From: a candidate division Kazan bacterium GW2011_GWA1_50_15
GTDB taxonomy: Bacteria > Patescibacteriota > Kazan-3B-28
DNA length: 64,000 bases
Reading direction: 5' to 3'
Assembly: GCA_001029795.1 (NCBI GenBank)
Contig: CP011216.1
Location: forward strand, 350,767 to 414,766
The translations under genes were made by a program, and so were the position numbers. How positions within the stretch are numbered: the first letter of the stretch is position 1; each line of letters begins with the position of its first letter. This document shows positions 3,906 through 59,069 of this stretch, piece by piece. A model generated the notes under the pieces. The model saw only the letters and a list, made by a program, of their open reading frames with translations. It searched no databases and was not told the origin of the DNA.

Positions 3906-4697
3906 GTGACCCAAATGGCAACATTACCTGTTGAATCTGCTGACGATATTACGGAGTCGGCGCCGCGCAAGCTACCAGAGAATAAAGATGCCGAATTGCG
4001 CGCAGCTCTTCAAGCGGCTCTAGCATCCGACCGGGGCGTGCTGGTTGCTGGAACAATGTGCAACAAAAAGGATTGCCCAACCCCGCCCGGCCTGCGTTGG
4101 CTGGACGAGAAGGAGCTGACTGCAGCTAAGACGCTACCTACATCATCGGGGCTGGTCATCATTCTGACTTCCACACACCACAAAACCAGTATGAAGCTCA
4201 AAGCTAATCTGCCAGAAGGCACCCAGTGCTTCGACCAGGTATCGGGCAATCAAGTGCGGCGGGCACTCAAGAATTTGGGTTATACCCCAGAACCAGTTAC
4301 GCCAGCGCCAGTCATCATGGTCGAGGTTTCACCTCCGCCAGAACCAGCACCCCAACCCAAGCGCCAGCATTACGGCATTAAACTAGTGCAGGTCATCGCT
4401 GACGCCAACGCCGATATGCTATCGTCCCTAGAGATCGAGGGGGCCGCCCAGTGGATAGCGCAATACATCCATCAGCGTAACGGCAAAGTTAATCCCAAGA
4501 CAGTCCGTAGTGTGCTGGAAAACCAACGAAGCGCCAGTGCCACCGATGCCGTGCTCCGCTCCATGGGAGATGACGACCAGGAACTAGGCCAACTCTTCAA
4601 AGAGCTGGACCGGGTCGTCAACAAATTGAAACAGCGTCTCCGCGCTATCGTCGAGGAGCGCAACCAGTACCGCGATGAGCTTTTTGCAGCCAGCTAA
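3906..4697 (+). CDS. hypothetical protein with a Pro-rich central linker
   Basis: 263-aa ORF with a PEPVTPAPVIMVEVSPPPEPAPQP linker and no recognisable catalytic motif; a terminator follows. Confidence 0.45.
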   Translation: MTQMATLPVESADDITESAPRKLPENKDAELRAALQAALASDRGVLVAGTMCNKKDCPTPPGLRWLDEKELTAAKTLPTSSGLVIILTSTHHKTSMKLKANLPEGTQCFDQVSGNQVRRALKNLGYTPEPVTPAPVIMVEVSPPPEPAPQPKRQHYGIKLVQVIADANADMLSSLEIEGAAQWIAQYIHQRNGKVNPKTVRSVLENQRSASATDAVLRSMGDDDQELGQLFKELDRVVNKLKQRLRAIVEERNQYRDELFAAS

Positions 4698-4704
4698 ACC
4701 TTTA

Positions 4705-4733
4705 CCGCCCCGATGAACATCGGGGCGTTTTTC
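4705..4733 (+). terminator. rho-independent terminator
   Basis: CGCCCCGATG-aaca-TCGGGGCG stem followed by TTTTT. Confidence 0.6.
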
Positions 4734-4811
4734 CTGTAAAATATCCTTGTCCCCCTTCTTCTTCTCCGTCCTCCATTATTCATTATTCATCCTTCATTAT
4801 TCATTATCTCG

Positions 4812-6089
4812 ATGCGCTACACCCATTCTTTTCTCAAAACCCTAAAAGACGCCCCGAAAGAGGCGGAGCTTATTAGTCACCAATATCTTCTGCGGGGTGG
4901 GTTCGTCACCCCCTTGGGCGCTGGCATCTATACCTATCTGCCGATGGGTTTTCGGGTAATGCGAAAGATCTATACCATCATTCAAGAAGAATTAAATAAA
5001 ATTGGCGTCGAAGATATTTTGATGCCGGTGGTCCACCCGGCCCGGGTGTGGAAGGAAACCGGCCGATTCTTCGAAGTCGGTCCGGAGCTCTGGAAGATCC
5101 AGAACCGCTCGGAGGAGGATTTCGTATTGGCAATGACTCACGAAGAGGTAGTCACGGACGCGGCCAAGAAAGTTATCCAGTCGTACAAAGACCTGCCGAA
5201 ATTGGTCGGCCAAATCCAACTGAAAGTCCGCGACGAAGCCCGGCCTCGCGGCGGACTCTTGCGTCTGCGCGAGTTCACGATGCAAGACGCCTATTCATTC
5301 GACAAAGACGAGAAAGAGTTAGAGATGTCTTATCAAAAATTTATCGGCGCCTACAAAAAAATATTTGAGCGGGTCGGAGTAAAAACCGTGATGATAGAAT
5401 CCGACACCGGCGCCATGGGCGGCCTGGGCGCGCATGAGTTTATGATGATTACCCCATCCGGCGAGGACAAGATAGTCACCGATGGCACACGAGCAGTGAA
5501 CGCTGAAAAACTCGGCATTGCGAAAGAAGAGGATGTCGACTCCCCCGCCGCTGCCTCCAAGATCGCTGAGTTTTTTGGCACGGCCAAAGTTGAATTTATG
5601 CGCGGCATTGAAGTTGGCAACATATTCAAACTTGGGACCAAATATTCCGACCCGCAGAAACTCAACTATTTGGATGAGAACAATCAGCAACGCCCTGTCA
5701 TTATGGGCAGTTACGGCATCGGACTCGACCGGTTAATCGCTTCCATTGTTGAAGCCAGCCACGACGACAAAGGCATGATTTGGCCGAAGGCGGTAGCCCC
5801 CTACCATATCCACCTCATCTCCATCGGCGACGACGAGAAGGTCTGGAACACCGCTAACCATATATATGAAGAGTTATGGCAGGCTGGAGCGGAGGTGTTC
5901 TTCGATGACCGTCTGGATGTCTCGGCCGGTGACAAGTTCGCCGATGCTGATTTGATCGGCATCCCCCTGAGAGTGGTCATCAGCTCAAAAACGCTAAATG
6001 ACAGTTCCGTTGAAGTCAAAGAGCGCGAGAAAAAAACTGCCAGGTTAGTCGCGCTGAACAGCTTGGTTGATAGCGTTAGGCCTAGGTAG
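4812..6089 (+). CDS. proS: prolyl-tRNA synthetase, short form lacking the bacterial editing insertion
   Basis: N-terminus MRYTHSFLKTLKDAPKEAELISHQYLLRGGF, class II motifs (FRDE-like REFTMQDAYSF) and a C-terminal anticodon-binding domain, 425 aa. No SD is visible; the leader carries CATTATTCAT repeats. Confidence 0.85.
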   Translation: MRYTHSFLKTLKDAPKEAELISHQYLLRGGFVTPLGAGIYTYLPMGFRVMRKIYTIIQEELNKIGVEDILMPVVHPARVWKETGRFFEVGPELWKIQNRSEEDFVLAMTHEEVVTDAAKKVIQSYKDLPKLVGQIQLKVRDEARPRGGLLRLREFTMQDAYSFDKDEKELEMSYQKFIGAYKKIFERVGVKTVMIESDTGAMGGLGAHEFMMITPSGEDKIVTDGTRAVNAEKLGIAKEEDVDSPAAASKIAEFFGTAKVEFMRGIEVGNIFKLGTKYSDPQKLNYLDENNQQRPVIMGSYGIGLDRLIASIVEASHDDKGMIWPKAVAPYHIHLISIGDDEKVWNTANHIYEELWQAGAEVFFDDRLDVSAGDKFADADLIGIPLRVVISSKTLNDSSVEVKEREKKTARLVALNSLVDSVRPR

Positions 6090-6185: not shown

Positions 6186-7427
6186 ATGCCACTGTTGCAT
6201 GTAGGCAACCAATCGTTGGCGATATTTGCCAACCAGCGGGTAACCAACCCCGATTTCGAGCGCCAGTACGAACAGAGGCATGTTCTGCTGGCAACAGCGG
6301 AGGACGTCCTCGTGACATCCACCCCGATCGACTCTGCCTATCTGGAGTATCTCGACTCTTTAGTGGGCATCCCCGAGATCGTGGTCGCTGGGCGGCATGA
6401 CCAAGTCTGCCTCGCTAAGAACATTTTGGGGGACCCTGAAACCCTGCGGCAGCTGCGGCGGGCTATCGACGGAAGGGAGTTTATCCTCCTACCATTTATG
6501 GCCACTCCGCAGATCGATCAGGTAGCGGCGCTCTTGGGTATTGATGTGTTGGGCTCGTCGGATCTAAGCGAACATTTCAACCGCAAGAGCAATTTCAGGG
6601 ACTTAGCCCACGAGCTAGGTCTGTCGGTCGCGGATGGAGTTGGACACATGCGGGACATTGCGTGCGTGAAACAGGCTGTCTGCCAGCTCGCCAACGGCGA
6701 CGGACAAGTAGTAGTCAAAGGCGACCTGGGCACCGGCGGGATGGAGAACATCCTGCTAGCCGAACACGCATCACTCGATGATCTCGAGCGCCAGTTGGAG
6801 GCTTGGTGGGTGTCTGGAGACAATCCCTTGGGTGAAGCGTTAGTCGCGGAGAGGTGGTATCCCAAGCGATGTTCACCCAGCATCCAGCTCTGTGTCACTA
6901 ACGGCAGTTTTACGCTAGGGCCGGTGATGACACAGATCCTCAACTCGAAAAGTGAGAGCGAGTATCTTGGTTGCCGTTTCCCAGCCAGACTACCAGACGA
7001 GATCGTCGAGGCTCTGGTGACCGGGGCTGAGTCGCTCGCGACCGTCTTCCAGGCCAAGGGGCTAAAAGGCTATATCGGGTTCGATACCATTGTGCTGCCG
7101 GACGGCAGTGTGATGTGGATTGAAGCCAATATGCGCCTCTCGGCCACCAGCTTCCCTTACCAGTTCGGCCAGCGGTTCTTTGGCCACAATCAGTTCAGCA
7201 TGGTAGGGCATTCGGTCAAAACCCGCCCTAGTCTGACGACCGATGGGGTTTTGGGCCGGCTGCGCCCAATGCTGCTTAAGCCTGGGAGCACCTCGGGGGT
7301 TATCCCCTATAACCTCGGGCTGCTGGCCTGGAACAAACTGGACCTGGCGGCCTTCGCCTCACCCCAGGGAGACGACCTAGTCCAGGAGCTGATCGGCGAG
7401 GCCGAACAACGGTTGAACTGGCGCTAG
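6186..7427 (+). CDS. ATP-grasp fold ligase of unknown specificity
   Basis: C-terminal WIEANMRLS (the ExN Mg-binding motif of ATP-grasp enzymes) and a central glycine-rich KGDLGTGGMENI. SD GGGAGGTGG lies 6 nt upstream of the ATG at 6186 (the ORF track used GTG at 6183). Confidence 0.5.
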   Translation: MPLLHVGNQSLAIFANQRVTNPDFERQYEQRHVLLATAEDVLVTSTPIDSAYLEYLDSLVGIPEIVVAGRHDQVCLAKNILGDPETLRQLRRAIDGREFILLPFMATPQIDQVAALLGIDVLGSSDLSEHFNRKSNFRDLAHELGLSVADGVGHMRDIACVKQAVCQLANGDGQVVVKGDLGTGGMENILLAEHASLDDLERQLEAWWVSGDNPLGEALVAERWYPKRCSPSIQLCVTNGSFTLGPVMTQILNSKSESEYLGCRFPARLPDEIVEALVTGAESLATVFQAKGLKGYIGFDTIVLPDGSVMWIEANMRLSATSFPYQFGQRFFGHNQFSMVGHSVKTRPSLTTDGVLGRLRPMLLKPGSTSGVIPYNLGLLAWNKLDLAAFASPQGDDLVQELIGEAEQRLNWR

Positions 7428-26980: not shown

Positions 26981-27088
26981 GTCATCCTCGGGCTTGGCCC
27001 GGGGATCCAGACAGAAACACAACGCATTTTTCTGTTCTTTTCTGGATTCCCGCTTTCGCGGGAATGACGAAGTATGGGACGGGATGAC
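26981..27088. repeat. MITE-like palindromic repeat, copy 1 (TIR GTCATCC / GGATGAC)
   Basis: Its first 38 nt are near-identical to copy 2 at 34586; there is an internal GGGATCCAGA / TCTGGATTCCC inverted repeat. Confidence 0.55.
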
Positions 27089-27650: not shown

Positions 27651-27803
27651 TTATCTCTTGGGAAAAAGAGTAGATGTAAGTAATTAACTTATTAGTACGA
27701 CTCGGCTGAACCCATTACTGGGCTTACACCTGTCGCCTATCAACCAAGTGGTCTCCTTGGAGTTTCTCCCCCCTTGCGGGGGATGGAAATCTATCTTGGG
27801 GTG

Positions 27804-27836
<33 letters not shown>

Positions 27837-27970
27837 CATCCGCACGTAGCTACCCGACAATGCTCTTGGTAGAACAGCCGGTACACCAGAGGTGCGTTCG
27901 CTTCGGTCCTCTCGTACTAGAAGCGACTTCCCTCAAATTTCCTTCGTCCACAGCAGATAGAGACCGACAA

Positions 27971-28747
27971 TTTGTTACTTTGCAAACCACATCCAATACT
28001 GATGTTGCTCTGTGGTGACCATACCTTTCGGTAGGATTCTACATATCGCTATGCAGTTCGGACTATATCTTTCCTGCCGTGTGGCAGGACTTGGCATATA
28101 GTCTCTGAGGATTCTAAATTGGCAAGAATTTTGTCTTTGTCTAGCTTGCGATACCTCCCTCCCCCATTCATCGAGAAGGCCTTAATAATAATTTTCTTGA
28201 GGCCATTCTTTTCAAGATGGTGGTTGGTTCGCATAGCGGAGACGATTTCAGCAAACTTTTGAAAATCAGTTTGTTTGGAAGACAAGAGGGGATAGTGTCG
28301 AAAAAACGGGATTACTTTAGTCAGCAAATCGTGACGATCCCTAACTACCAGCACCTGACTTTTGTCAGTTAGGCTGGTCCGGTGATTATCCTTGATGTAG
28401 CCACAACCCAGCAACTGCTGGATCTCGCGCAACATCGAAGCCCGTTCCTGGTTCTGGCTGACATGAAATTCGGGAATCACCTGATACCCAAGCTTCACAT
28501 TCGGGCTTTTTTGGATAGCCACATGAAAGCTACCTTCTCCATCAACATATCCCGCAACATACCAACTTAGTCTTTCCTGCTGATTGTCTGCACTCATACA
28601 TTTTCACTTTGCCAATCTTGATCTCATTATAAAATATAGAGACCATATTGGCAATAGTAGTATAGAGATACTCAGAGTTTCCAGCATTTAGCCAAGTTTA
28701 TAGACAGCGCAGTCATACATTATTCGCTCCTAGAGCGAATAATTACC
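27971..28747 (-). mobile_element. group I intron in 23S domain V/VI, at or next to the I-CreI-type homing region after GAGACAGT
   Basis: Exon sequence is continuous with E. coli up to GTCGTGAGACAGT and resumes at TTGTCGGTCTCTATCTG. The intervening roughly 777 nt carry a LAGLIDADG ORF. Boundaries are +/-15 nt. Confidence 0.6.
28049..28597 (-). CDS. LAGLIDADG homing endonuclease (single-motif, I-CreI-like size)
   Basis: WYVAGYVDGEGSFHV is the LAGLIDADG motif; 182 aa; same orientation as the rRNA, inside the intron. Confidence 0.8.
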   Translation of the reverse strand: MSADNQQERLSWYVAGYVDGEGSFHVAIQKSPNVKLGYQVIPEFHVSQNQERASMLREIQQLLGCGYIKDNHRTSLTDKSQVLVVRDRHDLLTKVIPFFRHYPLLSSKQTDFQKFAEIVSAMRTNHHLEKNGLKKIIIKAFSMNGGGRYRKLDKDKILANLESSETICQVLPHGRKDIVRTA

Positions 28748-28748
28748 C

Positions 28749-28814
<66 letters not shown>

Positions 28815-28828
28815 AACCTGCTCCAGCT

Positions 28829-28859
<31 letters not shown>

Positions 28860-28891
28860 AAACCGCTTCGTCGATATGGACTCTTGGAAGC

Positions 28892-28923
<32 letters not shown>

Positions 28924-29382
28924 TCGTTGAGCTTCGGCGCACCCATGTGCAACCGTCGGATCACTATATCCTGCTTTCGCATCTGCTTGACTTGTAGGTC
29001 TCGCAGTTAAGCTCCCATATACTATTGCGCTATCGTCCCGATTTCCATCCGGGACTAGGGAACCTTTGAACGCCTCCGTTACTTTTTGGGAGGCAACCGC
29101 CCCAGTTAAACTACCCACCAAACGCTGTCCCCCTGCCAGATAATGGCTAGAGGTTAGGATTAAGAAATAGTCAGGGTGGTATTTCACCGTTGACTCCACC
29201 CCGACTAGCGTCGGGGCTTCACAGTCTCCCACCTATCCTACACAAACCAGCTCCTAACCCAGCGTCAAGTTGTAGTAAAGCTCCACGGGGTCTTTTTGTC
29301 TTGCTGCGGATAGCCGGCATCTTCACCGGCAATGTAGTTTCGCCGAGTCCCTCTTTGAGACAGTCATCAGACCGTTACGCTA

Positions 29383-29457
<75 letters not shown>

Positions 29458-29479
29458 AGGGCTTAGTGTTGGAGCTTCT

Positions 29480-29541
29480 CCCGCCAATTTAAAGTTCGTA
29501 CTCGTGTGCTGCTACGCGAATACCAGCTCTAAATTGGCGGG
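29480..29541 (-). mobile_element. TIR-bounded IVS-like insertion A in 23S (domain IV helix tip)
   Basis: 62 nt bounded by CCCGCCAATTTAAAG ... CTCTAAATTGGCGGG. It replaces the GCGCAAGC loop between GGGGTTA and GAAGCTC. Confidence 0.6.
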
Positions 29542-30067
29542 ATAACCCCTCTACGTGACCTTCTGGCACCGGGCAAGCGTCAGCCCCTATACCTCCTCTT
29601 TCGAGTTAGCAGAGACCTGTGTTTTTGCTAAACAGTCGCCTGATGTCTTTAGCTGCGGCCCCCCACTTTCTACGCACCAACTTGCGTTGCTTAGCGCATG
29701 AGCGCTATGCGCAGAAAGTGGGGGGCAGTCCTTATTCCGAAGTTACGGACGCTATTTTGCCGAGTTCCTTAAAGAGGGTTCTCTCGTGCGCCTTAGGCTA
29801 CTCGCCCTATCCACCTGTGTCGGTTTAGGTACGGATGCTCAATGTTCTCGCTAGAGGTTTTTCTGGTCAACTTAGATCAGCCAAATCGCCTTGTCCCGAA
29901 AGACTCAACTTTCCATTACAACTCGCGGTTCTCCGATTGCTCGGACGTTCCCCGGATTTGCCAAAGGAACCCACTTGTTGCTTAGACTGAGAAACCTATC
30001 TCAGCTCGGCCTACCAACTTGCGTCACCCCATTGCTAGACGTGCAGACCAGCAGAACCAGCATCCAT

Positions 30068-30169
30068 CCCGCCAATTTAACGCTTGTACCTATGGTTATC
30101 TCTCGACCAATTACATATAAACGTAAAACGATTAAGAAACTACCAAGATACCAGCCCTAAATTGGCGGG
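30068..30169 (-). mobile_element. TIR-bounded IVS-like insertion B in 23S (domain III variable helix)
   Basis: 102 nt bounded by CCCGCCAATTTAA ... CCCTAAATTGGCGGG. Confidence 0.6.
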
Positions 30170-30537
30170 ACGATCATCTGGCCTACCAGTTTGCTTGTCT
30201 TGGGCGAACATTAAGCAGTACAGGAATATTAACCTGTTGTCCATCGCCTACGCCTTGCGGCCTCGGCTTAGGACCGACTAACCCTGGGTCGAAAACCGTC
30301 GCCCAGGAAACCTCGGATAAATCGGCGTTAGAGTTTTTCACTCTAATCTCGCTACTCGTGCCAACATTCTCACTTCTGCGCGCTCCATCCAACCTCGCGG
30401 TTAAACTTCACTGCTGCGCAGAACGCTCCCCTACCGCTCTGCCTTACGGCAGAGCCCGCATCTTCGGTATTCAGCTTAGCCCCGTTAAATTTTCGGCGCA
30501 GACACACATCGACCAGTGAGCTGTTACGCTTTCTTTG

Positions 30538-30568
<31 letters not shown>

Positions 30569-31066
30569 TTGTTCATGTGTCTCCACTTCCTTTCACACTT
30601 AGCTGAATTTAGGGACCTTAGATGGCGGTCTGGGCTGTTTCCCTTTCGACATACGACGCTTAGCCGCCGTTTTCTGACTCCCGGGCTTAACCGGACAGTA
30701 TTCGGAGTTTAATTGGACGCGGTACGGTAAACCGCCCGAATCCATTCAGTAGCTCTACCACTGCCGGGAACGCTCTGAGGCTATACCTAAATATATTTCG
30801 GGGAGAACCAGCTATCTCCGGGTTCGATTGGAATTTCTCCGCTAACCACAGTTCATCCCCCCACTTTTCAACGTAGGTGGGTGCGGCCCTCCACTGCTTT
30901 TTACGGCAGCTTCAGCCTGACCATGGTTAGGTCACCCGGTTTCGGGTCTAATCCCTGCTACTTCAATCGCGCTATTCGCACTTGCTTTCGCTTCGGCTGC
31001 GAACGATAAGTTCTTAGCCTTGCAACAGAAATTAACTCGTTGGCTCATTCTACAAAAGGCACGCCG

Positions 31067-31330
31067 TCACCCCGCCATTTTAAAGCTCGTATCTAAACGC
31101 TGTTTCAACCTAGTCCAAGTTGTTCCATAATTTTTCAGCAGTTTTTCTCGTTTGTAAGCCGCGTGGGGGTCACGATAGGCTTCATAATATACGAGGTTAA
31201 AACTGCCATGCCCTTGATGGGCTGAAAACCTCTGGCGCAGGCTTTTGGTCTGGCCAATGTATGGTTTATGGGTTTTTAGATTGAGTAAGACATAGACATA
31301 GTGCATGTCTACATCATATAGCGTCGACAC
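31067..31330 (-). CDS. minimal GIY-YIG nuclease (87 aa) encoded inside 23S insertion C
   Basis: YVYVLLNLKTHKPYIGQTKSLRQRFSAHQ is GIY-(10 aa)-YIG with the conserved Arg and His; a downstream YYEAY Glu is present. The C-terminal FKMAG* is encoded by the TIR itself, and the gene has the same orientation as the rRNA. Confidence 0.65.
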   Translation of the reverse strand: MSTLYDVDMHYVYVLLNLKTHKPYIGQTKSLRQRFSAHQGHGSFNLVYYEAYRDPHAAYKREKLLKNYGTTWTRLKQRLDTSFKMAG

Positions 31331-31349
31331 CAGCGCTAAAATGGCGGGG
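31071..31349 (-). mobile_element. TIR-bounded insertion C in 23S helix 25, carrying a GIY-YIG ORF (putative autonomous copy)
   Basis: 279 nt bounded by CCCGCCATTTTAAAGCTCGTAT ... GCGCTAAAATGGCGGG (an A/T compensatory pair keeps the ends complementary). It replaces the helix-25 hairpin, which is the classic IVS site. Confidence 0.6.
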
Positions 31350-31408
31350 CTCCGACTTTTAGATGGGCATTCGGTTTCAGGTACTATTTCACTCCCCTCG
31401 CCGGGGGA

Positions 31409-31447
<39 letters not shown>

Positions 31448-31829
31448 GAGAAGTGATATTTAGCCTTACCAGATGGTCCTGGCACATTCCGGCGGGATTT
31501 CACGGGTCCCACCGTACTTAAGAAATAACGCTCAGAGTGATCTTCTTTTCGCTTACGGGACTATCACCCTCTTTGGTTGCCCTTTCCAGGGACCTTTAGC
31601 TAAGAAAATCATTTGTAACTCCTCATTTGGTCTACCGCCCAAAATGCATTATCCTTGTAACCCCCTCCTGCGCAACGCCAGTAGGCTTTAACACGCAAGA
31701 GAGTTTAGACTTCTCCCTTTTCGCTCGCCACTACTTAGGGAATAACATTTGTTCTATTTTCCTCGTGCTACTAAGATGTTTCAGTTCGCACGGTTTCCTC
31801 CACATCGCCTATGTATTCAGCAATGGGTT

Positions 31830-31929
31830 CCCGCCAATTTAAAGCTCGTATATCGCTACTGCCCACCCGACTAATTAACGAATTATTTATCGGTTGGGAT
31901 ATTTGATATACCAGCCCTAAATTGGCGGG
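31830..31929 (-). mobile_element. TIR-bounded IVS-like insertion D in 23S (helix 9 tip)
   Basis: 100 nt bounded by CCCGCCAATTTAAAGCTCGTAT ... ATACCAGCCCTAAATTGGCGGG. It replaces the hairpin between GATTTCCGAATGG and GAACTGAAACATCT. Confidence 0.6.
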
Positions 31930-32097
31930 AGGATTGCTCCATTCGGAAATCCCCGGATCACAGGTTGCTTGACACCTACCCGAGGCCTAACGCGGTCTGC
32001 TACGTCCTTCTTCGGTCACTTCTCCCAAGGCATCCACCGCATGCCCTTGAGTAACTTACACGCTCTTTTATCTCAAGAGACGAGTGCCTTACACTTT

Positions 32098-34581: not shown

Positions 34582-34585
34582 TATT

Positions 34586-34668
34586 GTCATCCTCGGGCTT
34601 GACCCGGGGATCCAGACCGAAACAGATTTTGTTTTCTTTTCTGGGTCCCCAATCAAGTTGGGGATGAC
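34586..34668. repeat. MITE-like palindromic repeat, copy 2 (TIR GTCATCC / GGATGAC)
   Basis: GTCATCCTCGGGCTTGACCCGGGGATCCAGACCGAAACA ... TTCTTTTCTGGGTCCCC ... GGGGATGAC; lies between def and fmt. Confidence 0.55.
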
Positions 34669-34676
34669 CCGATGAA

Positions 34677-58681: not shown

Positions 58682-58697
58682 CCCAGTGCAAAATATG

Positions 58698-59069
58698 GGG
58701 CTGTCTAGCTTTCGACAGCGAACCTTGATAGCTGTTGGTCGCATACCGTTGCTGGTACCGTAACGCAAAATCGTACCAAACTACAAATGCCAACAAAGCA
58801 TTTAGCGGAAGCTCTGCTTTCGCGCCAGCGCTAGCCTAATTGCCAGCGCCATCGTTCCCGTCTCTGCTCGGATGGGCGGAATAACGGTGTCATATTATTC
58901 GAGCCGCTTTCCGGCAGGCCATTTGCCGGGACTAAGACCATAGTGGCTTAAGTTATTATCGCTTTGTCGGTTTGAGGATAATAACGGATACCCAACAAAC
59001 CGGCTATGTATGTAGAAGCCGACAGTTATCGTTCGCTGGACGGGGGTGCGAATCCCCCCAGCTCCACCA
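58698..59069 (+). ncRNA. ssrA: tmRNA (SsrA)
   Basis: 5' GGGGCTG pairs with 3' CAGCTCC-A-CCA. The 3' tRNA-like T-arm is GGACGGGGGTGCGAATCCCCC. The candidate tag ORF GCC AAC AAA GCA TTT AGC GGA AGC TCT GCT TTC GCG CCA GCG CTA GCC TAA reads ANKAFSGSSAFAPALA*. smpB lies 1.3 kb upstream. Confidence 0.7.

What the first reader, a model, noticed from the sequence alone, without database searches (positions are those of the whole stretch)
31067..31349. Minimal GIY-YIG nuclease gene inside a helix-25 IVS-like element, co-oriented with the rRNA and reading out through the element terminus
The 87-aa ORF has a canonical GIY-(10)-YIG core with the downstream Arg/His/Glu positions: YVYVLLNLKTHKPYIGQTKSLRQRFSAHQ ... 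YYEAY. It has no appended DNA-binding domain. Its last five codons (FKMAG) and the stop codon are encoded by the element's terminal inverted repeat. Known IVS-encoded proteins (the S23p four-helix-bundle family) are not nucleases, and known rRNA-borne GIY-YIG genes reside in group I introns, not in stem-bounded IVS. This could be a stand-alone homing or nicking enzyme that mobilises the TIR element family into rRNA hairpin loops. I do not recognise that arrangement from anything described.
Basis: partly seen in the sequence, partly recalled or inferred. Interest (0 to 1): 0.75.

Follow-up and report, generated by a model that had tools for sequence, protein, structure and literature searches.

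The report
Nuclease-carrying hairpin element in 23S rRNA
A small, conserved GIY-YIG nuclease gene of the recently described Ssn type sits inside a hairpin-shaped insertion at helix 25 of a 23S rRNA gene, with three gene-less copies of the same hairpin in other helices, which points to a possible way that intervening sequences spread through ribosomal and other structured RNA genes.

Summary
A GIY-YIG ORF (Pfam 38.6 bits; real start probably ATG 31306, 79 aa) lies co-oriented in a ~280-nt insertion at helix 25 of the 23S rRNA. A ~25-31 bp stem brackets it, and the stem's 3' arm encodes the last codons. Three ORF-less hairpins with the same termini (CCCGCC...GGCGGG) sit in helix 9, domain III and the helix 68 tip, and nowhere else in the 64 kb.

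The novelty claim is only partly right. GIY-YIG ORFs in non-intron rRNA insertions of CPR bacteria were already counted (30 ORFs; Tsurumaki 2024). The protein's closest characterised relatives are Ssn nucleases (Chenal 2025), single-domain ssDNA-hairpin-specific enzymes whose genes are flanked by hairpin repeats.

What appears undescribed:
- The ORF-plus-bracketing-stem module recurs in 23S, 16S and RNase P RNA genes across many phyla, always co-oriented, often with gene-less copies nearby.
- Close relatives show clean filled and empty sites.
- Three of the four sites are GCC-GNRA-GGC tetraloop tips when empty.
- The termini co-vary within genomes.

Best reading: an Ssn-like mobile hairpin element family that lives in helix tips of structured RNA genes. 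Nuclease-driven mobility is inferred, not shown. I rate it a new variant of known kinds, of moderately high interest.

The parts
31067..31306 (-). GIY-YIG (Ssn-like) nuclease gene, 79 aa plus TGA stop. The alternative upstream GTG start at 31330 would give 87 aa.
   Evidence: Pfam PF01541 38.6 bits. All homologues start at the equivalent Met. pN/pS 0.19. AF2 model pLDDT 80 with GIY-YIG topology. Top fold hits are UPF0213 and Slx1. The family HMM scores SRM-flanked Ssn proteins at 56-60 bits.
31069..31350 (-). Element 3: the ORF-bearing hairpin insertion at the helix 25 tip (E. coli ~526-554).
   Evidence: Rfam alignment places it as an insert at model position 583/584. E. coli mapping. RNA fold -117.9 kcal/mol, z -8.7. 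Absent from the H25 of relative L109, whose empty site is GCC-GCAA-GGC.
31326..31350 (-). 5' arm of element 3 (rRNA sense GCCCCGCCAUUUUAGCGCUGGUGUC).
   Evidence: Inverted repeat I8; stem table. In L001 there is a compensatory C-G to A-T change (CCCAGCC/GGCTGGG).
31069..31093 (-). 3' arm of element 3 (GAUACGAGCUUUAAAAUGGCGGGGU). It also encodes the C-terminal D-T-S-F-K-M-A-G and the first base of the stop codon.
   Evidence: 96% identical to L001 against 70% for the rest of the ORF. The ORF-less copies retain the same sequence.
31829..31930 (-). Element 4: ORF-less hairpin with the same termini, in helix 9 (E. coli ~130-156).
   Evidence: Fold -56.5 kcal/mol, z -7.4. Present in L100, absent in L001 and L109.
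30066..30171 (-). Element 2: ORF-less hairpin with the same termini, in domain III (E. coli ~1404-1447 by pairwise alignment; helix not assigned).
   Evidence: Fold -59.8 kcal/mol, z -10.2. Absent in L001, L100 and L109. Empty site TTCTGCC-GCAA-GGCAGGA.
29476..29545 (-). Element 1: ORF-less hairpin with the same termini, at the helix 68 tip (E. coli ~1865-1875).
   Evidence: Fold -46.2 kcal/mol, z -8.5. Present in L001 and L109, absent in L100, whose empty site is GCC-GCAA-GGC. The same site holds ORF-bearing copies in Acidobacteriaceae and Planctomycetota.
29658..29726 (-). Possible fifth ORF-less element of another terminus subfamily (CCCCCCACUUUC...GAAAGUGGGGGG), in helix 63.
   Evidence: Inverted repeat I11, 19 nt, 95%. 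Fold -51.6 kcal/mol; absent in L001 and L109. The terminus fits the family consensus. The same site holds ORF-bearing copies in L014 and L021. Membership is tentative.
27690..32060 (-). Host 23S rRNA gene, including a ~780-nt LAGLIDADG-bearing insertion (27968-28748) that splits off the 3' exon.
   Evidence: Rfam LSU. E. coli 2605-2884 maps to window 27691-27967.

Best explanation
The ORF is a real, selected, single-domain GIY-YIG nuclease whose closest characterised relatives are the Ssn site-specific ssDNA nucleases. Together with the inverted repeat that brackets it, it forms the gene-carrying ('autonomous-looking') copy of a hairpin element family. The three or four ORF-less hairpins in other helices of the same 23S are gene-less members of that family, comparable to MITEs or REPs.

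The family occupies the apical tips of helices in structured RNA genes (23S, 16S, RNase P RNA). There the element simply lengthens a helix, so the RNA tolerates it, either as an expansion or, more likely, as an RNase III-excised intervening sequence.

The gene has no promoter of its own and is always co-oriented with its host, so it is presumably expressed from the rRNA precursor or the excised hairpin RNA.

Proposed mechanism (inferred): like Ssn, the nuclease recognises the C-rich/G-rich hairpin formed by the element ends in single-stranded DNA. It may also recognise look-alike native GCC-GNRA-GGC hairpin tips, for example on the displaced non-template strand of heavily transcribed rDNA. Its cut would then stimulate recombination or repair that copies the element into such tips, or maintains it there.

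Shown: gene identity and selection, architecture, distribution, filled/empty polymorphism, target-tip similarity, and sense-strand stem maintenance. Inferred: nuclease activity, its substrate, its role in mobility, and RNA-level excision.
For: Gene:
- Pfam GIY-YIG above cutoff, with all catalytic positions invariant.
- pN/pS 0.19. An identical protein occurs on 14-15 contigs from several samples.
- GIY-YIG fold, nearest to UPF0213 and Slx1.

Ssn link:
- tblastn finds 94-aa proteins in Rhizobium, Sinorhizobium and Aeromonas bracketed by inverted SRM/NTS hairpins, with the Y6/Y17/E64 layout of SsnA.
- The family HMM scores them at 56-60 bits against 28-36 for UPF0213. Window ORF against Aeromonas Ssn: 38% identity, E=7e-10.

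Element family in the window:
- 8 termini against 0.73 expected, all in the 23S as four pairs.
- The ORF-less copies fold into single long hairpins, z -7 to -10.

Generality:
- 459 relatives in representative genomes.
- Of the best 80, 17 are inside 23S at five or more sites, 3 in 16S, and at least 2 in RNase P RNA. All are co-oriented with the host RNA.
- 65 of 85 loci have a 13-30 bp bracketing stem with outer ends CCC(C/A)GC(C/A)C.
- 13 of 65 have extra ORF-less copies of their own terminus nearby, including in the same 23S, the neighbouring 16S and the same RNase P RNA.
- All 11 paired-arm copies of the window's terminus found in metagenomes lie in rRNA genes.

Mobility:
- L100 (92-95% identical 23S) has el4 but lacks el1 and el2, and has a different insert at H25.
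- L109 lacks el2, el3 and el4. L001 (80%) has el1 and el3+ORF but lacks el2 and el4.

Recognition:
- Both L001 copies carry CCAGCC/GGCTGG where all four window copies carry CCCGCC/GGCGGG.
- Three of four empty sites are GCC-GNRA-GGC tips, of which a 23S has only 1-5.

Strand:
- In rRNA-borne stems, G.T outnumbers A.C 22:3.
- No promoter-like site near the ORF.
Against: - No biochemical evidence exists for this protein or its subfamily.
- A hydrolytic GIY-YIG nuclease cannot rejoin DNA, so it cannot be a transposase on its own. No target-site duplication or clean cut-and-paste signature was seen.
- The published SRM search pattern matches none of the flanks of this family: 0 of 85 loci. Here the two arms bracket the gene rather than each being a complete small hairpin, so this is not the canonical Ssn/SRM layout. 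CDD cd10448 membership could not be checked.
- The window copy has no Shine-Dalgarno sequence, and its start codon lies in a local hairpin, so translation is not assured. Other copies do have AGGAGG.
- The G.T bias shows RNA-level (or sense-strand) selection on the stem, which an ordinary RNase III-processed IVS would also show.
- The GCC-GNRA-GGC target pattern was noticed post hoc, rests on three sites, and leaves two such tips unoccupied in the window.
- The correlation between protein clade and terminus is weak (rho 0.09, p 0.027).
Confidence: 0.6

Rival explanations
1. These are ordinary RNase III-type intervening sequences or expansion segments, and the ORF is only a passenger. The shared termini reflect a common RNA-processing or folding requirement, or intragenic gene conversion. 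The GIY-YIG ORF is a selfish or decaying lodger that plays no part in spreading the hairpins.
For: Helix 25 is a classical IVS site, and short non-intron inserts at such sites in CPR were interpreted this way. All stems are at least 22 bp, which suits RNase III. The G.T over A.C bias (22:3) shows selection on the RNA-sense stem. ORF-less inserts are common, and several ORFs are broken (L034, L057, L074, L085). L100 has an unrelated ORF-less insert at H25.
Against: A generic dsRNA requirement does not explain several observations. Four different helices carry the same 20+ nt terminal sequence. A relative carries a compensated variant in both of its copies. The same ORF-plus-stem module, with the same terminus consensus, also occurs at intergenic sites and in RNase P RNA across phyla. 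The ORF is under purifying selection with intact catalytic residues. Its nearest characterised relatives are hairpin-repeat-associated nucleases.
Confidence: 0.22
2. It is a classical homing endonuclease. The protein would recognise a specific long sequence at insertion-free helix 25 rDNA, make a double-strand break, and be copied in by homologous repair, like I-TevI-type enzymes but without an intron.
For: The GIY-YIG domain is shared with intron homing endonucleases, and there is a weak NCBIfam hit to group I intron endonuclease (21 bits, below the cutoff of 56). H25 is the commonest site for ORF-bearing copies. Presence is patchy among relatives.
Against: There is no DNA-binding domain, whereas I-TevI-type enzymes need one. 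I-TevI is only the 29th fold hit, behind UPF0213 and Slx1. Family members occupy at least five 23S sites plus 16S, RNase P RNA and intergenic sites that have unrelated flanks. The four window sites share no flanking sequence. There is no ribozyme around the ORF.
Confidence: 0.08
3. It is a host-serving Ssn-type ssDNA nuclease, for example one that restricts or modulates incoming single-stranded DNA as SsnA does in Neisseria. It would merely use the rRNA operon as a strong expression platform, and the hairpins would be its regulatory or recognition repeats rather than mobile DNA.
For: SsnA modulates natural transformation and was proposed to be a domesticated element. The window also holds canonical SRM/NTS hairpin pairs outside the rRNA, with no other GIY-YIG gene in the 64 kb.
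Against: Copies of this terminus are confined to rRNA genes rather than dispersed around genes: 0 elsewhere in the window, and 11 of 11 paired copies in metagenomes lie in rRNA. The patchy distribution and decayed ORFs look selfish. Placing a useful gene inside an essential RNA helix is an odd way to express it.
Confidence: 0.08
4. The ORF is spurious, a chance open frame in a structured RNA insertion.
For: It lies within an rRNA gene, where gene callers usually do not annotate ORFs. The window copy has no obvious ribosome-binding site.
Against: Pfam hit above cutoff. Hundreds of homologues with invariant catalytic residues. Codon-position pattern and pN/pS of 0.19. Confident GIY-YIG fold.
Confidence: 0.01

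Closest known systems
Ssn nucleases with SRM/NTS hairpin repeats (Chenal et al. 2025, Nat Commun; CDD cd10448)
   Same: Small single-domain GIY-YIG protein with the same catalytic layout. The gene is bracketed by inverted, hairpin-forming C-rich/G-rich repeats with a CCCGC core. Gene-less repeat copies occur elsewhere. The architecture is IS-like. The family HMM scores SRM-flanked Ssn proteins at 56-60 bits.
   Different: The protein here is shorter (79 against 94 aa; it lacks ~14 residues between the YIG motif and beta3, and the C-terminal helix). The published SRM pattern does not match the flanks. The two arms form one long stem enclosing the gene, rather than two separate complete hairpins. 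Copies live inside rRNA and RNase P RNA helices, co-oriented with the host, a context the Ssn paper does not mention at all.
GIY-YIG ORFs in non-intron rRNA insertions of CPR bacteria (Brown et al. 2015 as cited; Tsurumaki et al. 2024, J Bacteriol)
   Same: This is the same phenomenon: GIY-YIG ORFs in 16S/23S insertions that are neither group I nor group II introns (30 ORFs).
   Different: [quoted passage not shown] They did not describe bracketing inverted repeats, gene-less sister copies, the relation to Ssn, occurrence outside CPR, or occurrence in RNase P RNA.
Classical 23S rRNA intervening sequences (helix 25/helix 45 IVS of Salmonella, Leptospira, Campylobacter and others; some encode S23p, PF05635)
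   Same: Same site (helix 25). A long stem extends the host helix. The optional ORF is co-oriented with the rRNA. Distribution among relatives is sporadic.
   Different: The encoded protein is a nuclease, not the four-helix-bundle S23p. The same termini recur at several helices of one gene and in other RNA genes. RNase III excision is not shown here.
REP/BIME repeats with RAYT, and IS200/IS605 (ssDNA-hairpin-recognising Y1 transposases)
   Same: A single gene flanked by inverted hairpin repeats, with gene-less hairpin copies dispersed elsewhere. Recognition of hairpins in ssDNA is the presumed basis. Chenal et al. draw the same analogy.
   Different: The enzyme is a hydrolytic GIY-YIG nuclease, not a HUH/Y1 transposase, so it cannot perform strand transfer itself. 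Copies are confined to structured RNA genes in this lineage.
GIY-YIG homing endonucleases of group I introns (I-TevI type)
   Same: GIY-YIG catalytic domain. A gene embedded in an insertion within a conserved gene.
   Different: No ribozyme, no linker or DNA-binding domain, and no single conserved target. The fold is nearer to UPF0213/Slx1.
UPF0213/YhbQ stand-alone GIY-YIG proteins and the Slx1 nuclease domain
   Same: These are the nearest solved structures (1zg2, 1ywl; Slx1 4xm5, TM 0.61, 1.8 A). Slx1 is a structure-specific endonuclease acting on branched and hairpin DNA.
   Different: Lower sequence scores than to Ssn (28-36 against 56-60 bits). No association with flanking hairpins or RNA genes is known for UPF0213.

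Membership tests
GIY-YIG nuclease superfamily | Sequence match to the GIY-YIG catalytic domain above the curated threshold | tested here: met
   PF01541 38.6 bits against cutoff 22.6, E=1.4e-9
GIY-YIG nuclease superfamily | Conserved catalytic residues (the two Tyr of GIY/YIG, Arg, His/Tyr, metal-binding Glu) | tested here: met
   Y11, Y13, Y24, G26, R32, R34, H38, E50, R61 and E62 are invariant in 25 homologues
GIY-YIG nuclease superfamily | Three-stranded sheet flanked by helices (beta-beta-alpha-beta-alpha) | tested here: met
   AF2 model pLDDT 80, E10-17 E23-28 H31-41 E44-52 H55-67 H69-86. Top PDB hits are UPF0213 and Slx1, probability 1.0.
Ssn family (cd10448, Chenal 2025) | Assignment to CDD cd10448 / position inside the Ssn clade | not testable with these tools
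   No CDD or rpsblast is available. As a proxy, the family HMM scores three SRM-flanked 94-aa Ssn proteins at 56-60 bits against 28-36 for UPF0213. BLASTP to Aeromonas Ssn gives 38% identity, E=7e-10.
Ssn family (cd10448, Chenal 2025) | Small monomeric single-domain protein (~94 aa) without a DNA-binding domain | tested here: met
   79 aa (family range 73-100 aa), with one Pfam domain covering nearly all of it
Ssn family (cd10448, Chenal 2025) | Gene flanked by SRM repeats as defined by the published pattern HGTCWY..YYVSBRH..WNVSBRG..RNCYNB | tested here: not met
   0 SRM matches within 300 nt of 85 family ORFs. The reference Ssn loci do match on both sides.
Ssn family (cd10448, Chenal 2025) | Gene flanked by 20-50 nt inverted repeats likely to form hairpins (general statement in the paper) | tested here: met
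   65 of 85 loci have a 13-30 bp bracketing stem with a CCC(C/A)GC(C/A)C terminus. The window stem is 25-31 bp.
Ssn family (cd10448, Chenal 2025) | Site-specific cleavage of ssDNA only, next to its cognate hairpin | not testable with these tools
   Requires purified protein and labelled oligonucleotides
23S rRNA intervening sequence (IVS) | Insertion at the tip of a peripheral helix (classically H25 or H45) that extends it as a long stem | tested here: met
   Insert at LSU model position 583/584, the H25 loop, E. coli ~526-554. Stem ~31 bp.
23S rRNA intervening sequence (IVS) | Excised from the precursor by RNase III without religation, giving fragmented 23S rRNA | not testable with these tools
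   No transcript data. Only indirect support: the stems are long enough, and they are maintained in the RNA sense (G.T:A.C = 22:3).
Group I intron-encoded GIY-YIG homing endonuclease | ORF embedded in a self-splicing group I intron | tested here: not met
   No intron family match over 31067-31350. The flank is a simple stem. The NCBIfam grpIintron_endo hit is 21 bits, below the cutoff of 56.
Group I intron-encoded GIY-YIG homing endonuclease | C-terminal DNA-binding domain and one long conserved target site | tested here: not met
   The protein is a single 79-aa domain. Family members occupy many unrelated sites.
MITE/IS-like mobile element | Terminal inverted repeats shared by gene-carrying and gene-less copies | tested here: met
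   Four copies in the window with the same termini. Extra gene-less copies in 13 of 65 other loci.
MITE/IS-like mobile element | Presence/absence polymorphism at orthologous sites in close relatives | tested here: met
   el1 and el2 are absent in L100 (92-95% identical 23S). el2, el3 and el4 are absent in L109. el2 and el4 are absent in L001.
MITE/IS-like mobile element | Target-site duplication and a transposase | tested here: not met
   No duplication at the filled/empty junctions; the element appears to replace a short GNRA-capped tip. The only encoded protein is a hydrolytic nuclease.

The most novel reading that the evidence does not exclude
Ssn-type GIY-YIG nucleases and their hairpin repeats are the long-sought agents that create and spread intervening sequences in structured RNA genes. 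The nuclease would recognise C-rich/G-rich GNRA-capped hairpins that rDNA (and RNase P RNA genes) form when single-stranded. It would cut there, and repair would copy the hairpin element into the helix tip. That would explain why IVSs sit at helix tips, why they are sporadic among close relatives, and why one genome's IVSs share termini. It would be a new mode of mobility, structure-targeted and aimed at RNA-gene hairpins, operating in CPR bacteria and also in Acidobacteriota, Verrucomicrobiota, Planctomycetota, Cloacimonadota and Deferribacterota.
Probability: 0.3. Interest if true: 0.85.

Novelty: new variant of a known kind. Interest (0 to 1): 0.62.

Why it matters
How intervening sequences enter rRNA genes and spread horizontally has been an open question since their discovery. 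CPR bacteria are notable for how many such insertions they carry.

This locus connects three literatures that do not cite each other on this point: classical rRNA IVSs, the catalogue of CPR rRNA insertions, and the new Ssn family of hairpin-specific ssDNA nucleases. It also supplies concrete, testable substrates: the element termini and the empty GCC-GNRA-GGC tips.

If the nuclease does act on these hairpins, that would explain IVS mobility. It would widen the biology of Ssn enzymes beyond Neisseria transformation. It would also add compact (79 aa) ssDNA nucleases with new specificities to the toolbox.

For annotation, it shows that real protein genes are hidden inside rRNA and RNase P RNA genes in several phyla, including a cultured Deferribacter strain.

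Tried and rejected
- The published SRM regular expression was applied to the flanks of 85 family loci and gave no hits, so I did not file the element as a canonical Ssn/SRM locus.
- NCBIfam gave only a sub-threshold group I intron endonuclease hit. I rejected it as evidence for a homing endonuclease.
- The Mantel-type test of protein identity against terminus identity was weak (rho 0.09, p 0.027) and is not used as evidence of co-evolution.
- The promoter/terminator scan around the ORF found nothing.
- Rfam on 17 'free-standing' loci found a host RNA in only one, RNase P in L048. Most non-rRNA copies are therefore treated as intergenic, not as hidden RNA-gene insertions.
- I looked for a second GIY-YIG gene in the window that could serve the canonical SRM hairpins and found none.
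- I looked for a target-site duplication or a shared flanking motif at the four sites and found none beyond the GCC/GGC closing pairs.
- The supplements of the Ssn paper are not held, so no SsnA sequence from Neisseria could be used. SRM-flanked plasmid and chromid homologues served as references instead.
- The duplex-energy screen was confounded by long-range rRNA pairing. I replaced it with a gapless innermost-stem search and a symmetric mismatch scoring.
Full report
**1. The observation**

The window carries a 23S rRNA gene on the minus strand (Rfam LSU, 2265 bits). It matches Pfam GIY-YIG at 38.6 bits, E=1.4e-9, curated cutoff 22.6. The Rfam alignment places it entirely within an insertion in the loop of helix 25, model position 583/584. 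That corresponds to E. coli ~526-554 when the gene is aligned to rrlH.

The insertion is bracketed by an inverted repeat, 31070-31093 / 31326-31349. In an RNA fold this extends to about 31 bp: -117.9 kcal/mol, z = -8.7 against shuffles. The 3' arm encodes the last codons (D-T-S-F-K-M-A-G), and the stop codon straddles the junction with the host helix.

One correction is needed. All homologues begin M-[HFY]-Y-V-Y, and residues 1-9 of the 87-aa version are modelled with low confidence. The real start is therefore almost certainly the ATG at 31306 (79 aa); the upstream GTG lies within the 5' arm.

**2. It is a real gene**

- The protein occurs, identical, on 14-15 contigs from several groundwater data sets.
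- A 73%-identical orthologue sits at the same place in a related organism with the same neighbouring genes (L001).
- Between the two, pN/pS is 0.19. Third codon positions are 46% identical against 82% for positions 1+2. The 27 nt that double as the stem arm are 96% identical.
- The GIY and YIG tyrosines, the arginines, the histidine and the glutamates are invariant in 25 homologues.
- An AlphaFold model (pLDDT 80) has the GIY-YIG topology. Its best structural matches are the UPF0213 protein BH0048 and the Slx1 nuclease domain. I-TevI ranks only 29th.

**3. The element family in the window**

The terminus CCCGCCAATTTAAAGC occurs eight times in 64 kb, allowing up to 3 mismatches, against 0.73 expected. 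All eight are within the 23S gene as four inward-facing pairs.

| Element | Window coordinates | Site | ORF |
|---|---|---|---|
| el1 | 29476-29545 | helix 68 tip | none |
| el2 | 30066-30171 | domain III | none |
| el3 | 31069-31350 | helix 25 | GIY-YIG |
| el4 | 31829-31930 | helix 9 | none |

The three ORF-less copies each fold into one long, nearly perfect hairpin continuing the host helix (-46 to -60 kcal/mol, z -7.4 to -10.2). They retain the sequence that encodes the C-terminal T-S-F-K-(M/L)-A-G in el3.

A further 69-nt hairpin in helix 63 (29658-29726) has a terminus of another subtype, CCCCCCACTTTC. It may be a fifth member.

**4. What is already known**

Two papers bear directly on this.

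- Tsurumaki et al. 2024 (PMC11270868) surveyed rRNA insertions in CPR bacteria. They found 30 GIY-YIG ORFs (15 in 16S, 15 in 23S), none within group I or II introns. [quoted passage not shown] 2015 for the first observation.
- Chenal et al. 2025 (PMC11893778) describe the Ssn family (CDD cd10448). These are ~94-aa single-domain GIY-YIG proteins that bind a specific hairpin (NTS/SRM) in single-stranded DNA only and cut a few nucleotides upstream. Their genes are usually flanked by those hairpin repeats in an IS-like NTS-ssnA-NTS layout. The paper does not mention rRNA.

No paper in the library links the two.

**5. Relation to Ssn**

A tblastn search of plasmids and chromids with a family member found 94-aa 'GIY-YIG nuclease family proteins' in Rhizobium, Sinorhizobium, Shinella and Aeromonas. 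I inspected three. Each is bracketed by inverted copies of sequences that match the published SRM pattern. The Aeromonas protein has Y6, Y17 and E64 exactly as SsnA does.

- The HMM of the window protein's family scores these reference Ssn proteins at 56-60 bits, against 28-36 bits for the UPF0213 structures.
- The window ORF aligns to the Aeromonas protein at 38% identity, E=7e-10.
- The SRM pattern itself matches none of the flanks of 85 loci of this family.
- Here the two arms enclose the gene as one stem; they are not two separate small hairpins.

I therefore call the protein Ssn-like and do not file it as a member. CDD assignment could not be tested.

**6. Generality of the ORF-plus-stem module**

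The representative-genome collection holds 459 relatives.

- Of the 80 best, 17 lie inside a 23S gene.
  - Several are at helix 25: Cloacimonadales, Verrucomicrobiia, Chthoniobacterales, Tindallia and CPR.
  - Some are at the helix 68 tip, exactly where the window's ORF-less el1 sits: Acidobacteriaceae and Planctomycetota.
  - Others are at helix 63, at E. coli ~275-300 (Deferribacter thermophilus BMA, a cultured strain), and in domain III.
- Three are in 16S genes (I read the flanks as helix 6, ~position 200 and helix 44 from my own knowledge of conserved 16S sequence).
- At least two are in RNase P RNA: L048 at 121 bits, and L016 at 90 bits, E=8e-28, with the 3' arm forming the 3' strand of P3.
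- In every one of these the ORF is co-oriented with the host RNA.
- Sixty-five of 85 loci, including most 'free-standing' ones, have a 13-30 bp stem. It starts 15-55 nt upstream of the start codon and ends from 15 nt before to 30 nt past the end of the stop codon. The outer ends follow the consensus 5'-CCC(C/G/A)(G/C)(C/A)(C/A)(C/A)-T-rich.
- Thirteen of the 65 have additional ORF-less copies of their own terminus within a few kb: in the same 23S (L034), the adjacent 16S (L051/L054) or the same RNase P RNA (L048).
- A metagenome scan for the window's own terminus returned 13 loci. All 11 paired-arm elements (10 loci) lie inside rRNA genes, including the 3'-terminal domain of 23S and a 16S. The three non-rRNA hits are single arms, at about chance frequency.

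**7. Evidence for gain and loss**

Three relatives give orthologous filled and empty sites.

| Relative | 23S identity | el1 (H68) | el2 (dom. III) | el3 (H25) | el4 (H9) |
|---|---|---|---|---|---|
| L100 | 92-95% | absent | absent | different ORF-less 157-nt insert | present |
| L109 | ~85% | present | absent | absent | absent |
| L001 | 80% | present | absent | present, with intact ORF | absent |

This patchiness does not follow 23S similarity.

Both L001 copies carry CCAGCC...GGCTGG where all four window copies carry CCCGCC...GGCGGG. That is a compensated change shared across different insertion sites within a genome. It argues for sequence-specific recognition or ongoing copying, not merely 'any long stem'.

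The empty sites are informative:
- H68 tip: GCC-GCAA-GGC
- Domain III site: CTGCC-GCAA-GGCAG
- H25: TGGCC-GCAA-GGCTG

So three of the four occupied sites are GNRA tetraloops closed by GCC/GGC when empty. The 23S genes examined have only one to five such tips. I saw no target-site duplication; the element seems to replace the short tip. This target pattern was found post hoc and rests on few sites.

**8. Strand and expression**

With G.T and A.C scored symmetrically, the rRNA-borne stems contain 22 G.T and 3 A.C (23S alone 18:3, p = 0.0015). Free-standing copies show 22:12, which is not significant. Within RNA genes the stem is therefore maintained in the sense strand. That is what one expects if the RNA must keep a continuous helix, whether as an RNase III substrate or an expansion. 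It is equally compatible with a hairpin on the non-template DNA strand.

No promoter-like or terminator-like site lies near the ORF. Together with universal co-orientation, this points to expression from the rRNA precursor. The window copy lacks a Shine-Dalgarno sequence, and its AUG sits in a small hairpin. Other copies have AGGAGG.

**9. Interpretation**

The best-supported reading is an Ssn-like nuclease gene together with its cognate inverted repeat, forming a hairpin element. Gene-less derivatives accompany it, and the family has specialised in the helix tips of structured RNA genes.

The gene, the architecture, the distribution, the polymorphism and the sense-strand stem maintenance are shown. 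Four things are inferred: that the protein cuts ssDNA hairpins, that this promotes copying into look-alike GNRA-capped tips (for instance on the displaced strand of transcribed rDNA), that the RNA is excised by RNase III, and that the excised hairpin serves as mRNA.

The main rival is that these are ordinary IVSs with a passenger ORF. That rival explains the RNA-level signal. It does not explain the shared, co-varying termini or the presence of the same module outside rRNA. Classical homing is unlikely for lack of a DNA-binding domain and of a common target sequence.

**10. Verdict**

The existence of GIY-YIG ORFs in non-intron CPR rRNA insertions is already published, and so is the enzyme type. 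The following appear to be new:
- recognition that these ORFs are Ssn-like and bracketed by a conserved terminus;
- the gene-less sister hairpins;
- occurrence in non-CPR phyla and in RNase P RNA;
- the filled/empty sites with GNRA-tip targets.

I rate it a new variant of known kinds, with moderately high interest. It offers a concrete, testable mechanism for the origin and spread of rRNA intervening sequences.

Noticed in passing
window 27968-28748 (insertion), ORF 28049-28597 (-), 3' exon ~27690-27967: The 23S gene does not end at 28626 as the Rfam alignment suggests. E. coli 2605-2884 maps to window 27691-27967, so a ~780-nt insertion after E. coli position 2604 carries a 182-aa LAGLIDADG_1 ORF. 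The relative L001 has an Rfam-detected group I intron at the same place. This matches site 23IS13 of Tsurumaki et al.
   Followed up: partly
window ~26990-27069 (-) and 34585-34672 (+): There are two canonical Ssn-related motif (SRM) hairpin pairs. One begins with an exact copy of the Neisseria NTS consensus, CGTCATTCCCGCGAAAGCGGGAATCCAG, just downstream of the 5S gene. The other lies between def and fmt and is nearly identical to the SRM flanking Sinorhizobium ssn. Each is an inverted SRM pair with only a 25-31 nt spacer, which is the SRM-ssn-SRM layout without the gene. No canonical ssn gene lies in the 64 kb.
   Followed up: partly
window 29658-29726 (-): Helix 63 carries a 69-nt hairpin with a 19-bp stem and a terminus (CCCCCCACUUUC) that fits the consensus of other subfamilies of the GIY-YIG elements. 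It is absent in relatives L001 and L109. ORF-bearing family members occupy the same helix in L014 and L021.
   Followed up: partly
L048 3945-4770 and L016 ~4480-5096 (also L023, L040 by the GAGGAAAGTCC motif): RNase P RNA genes of CPR bacteria host the same GIY-YIG hairpin module. In L016 it sits in the P3 loop. In L048 it sits near model position 324, and that RNA also holds a second, ORF-less copy.
   Followed up: partly
L100 ~7233-7391 (H25), ~6454-6615, ~5693-5826 (H63), ~5008-5505: A 92-95% identical relative of the window's 23S carries a different set of insertions: an unrelated ORF-less 157-nt insert at helix 25 with the same outer CCCCGCCA, a ~160-nt insert near window-rRNA position 1605-1626, a longer helix 63 insert, and a ~500-nt insert near position 2650. 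This shows rapid turnover of rRNA insertions in the lineage.
   Followed up: no
window 31599-31700 and 29975-30034 (-): The 23S has further lineage-specific expansions that lack the shared termini: 49 + 33 nt after E. coli 275/295, and 60 nt after E. coli 1478.
   Followed up: no
window, whole: The 23S and 5S genes are present, but no 16S gene lies within the 64 kb. The rRNA genes therefore appear unlinked, as is common in CPR bacteria. A tmRNA gene lies at 58697-59069.
   Followed up: no
L058 (Deferribacter thermophilus strain BMA, NZ_JAPNXM010000024.1) 2351-2608: A cultured, non-CPR bacterium carries an intact family member with a strong Shine-Dalgarno sequence inside its 23S gene (E. coli ~275-300), bracketed by a 24-bp stem, CCCCGCCCTCATTAAGAG.... 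It offers an experimental system.
   Followed up: no
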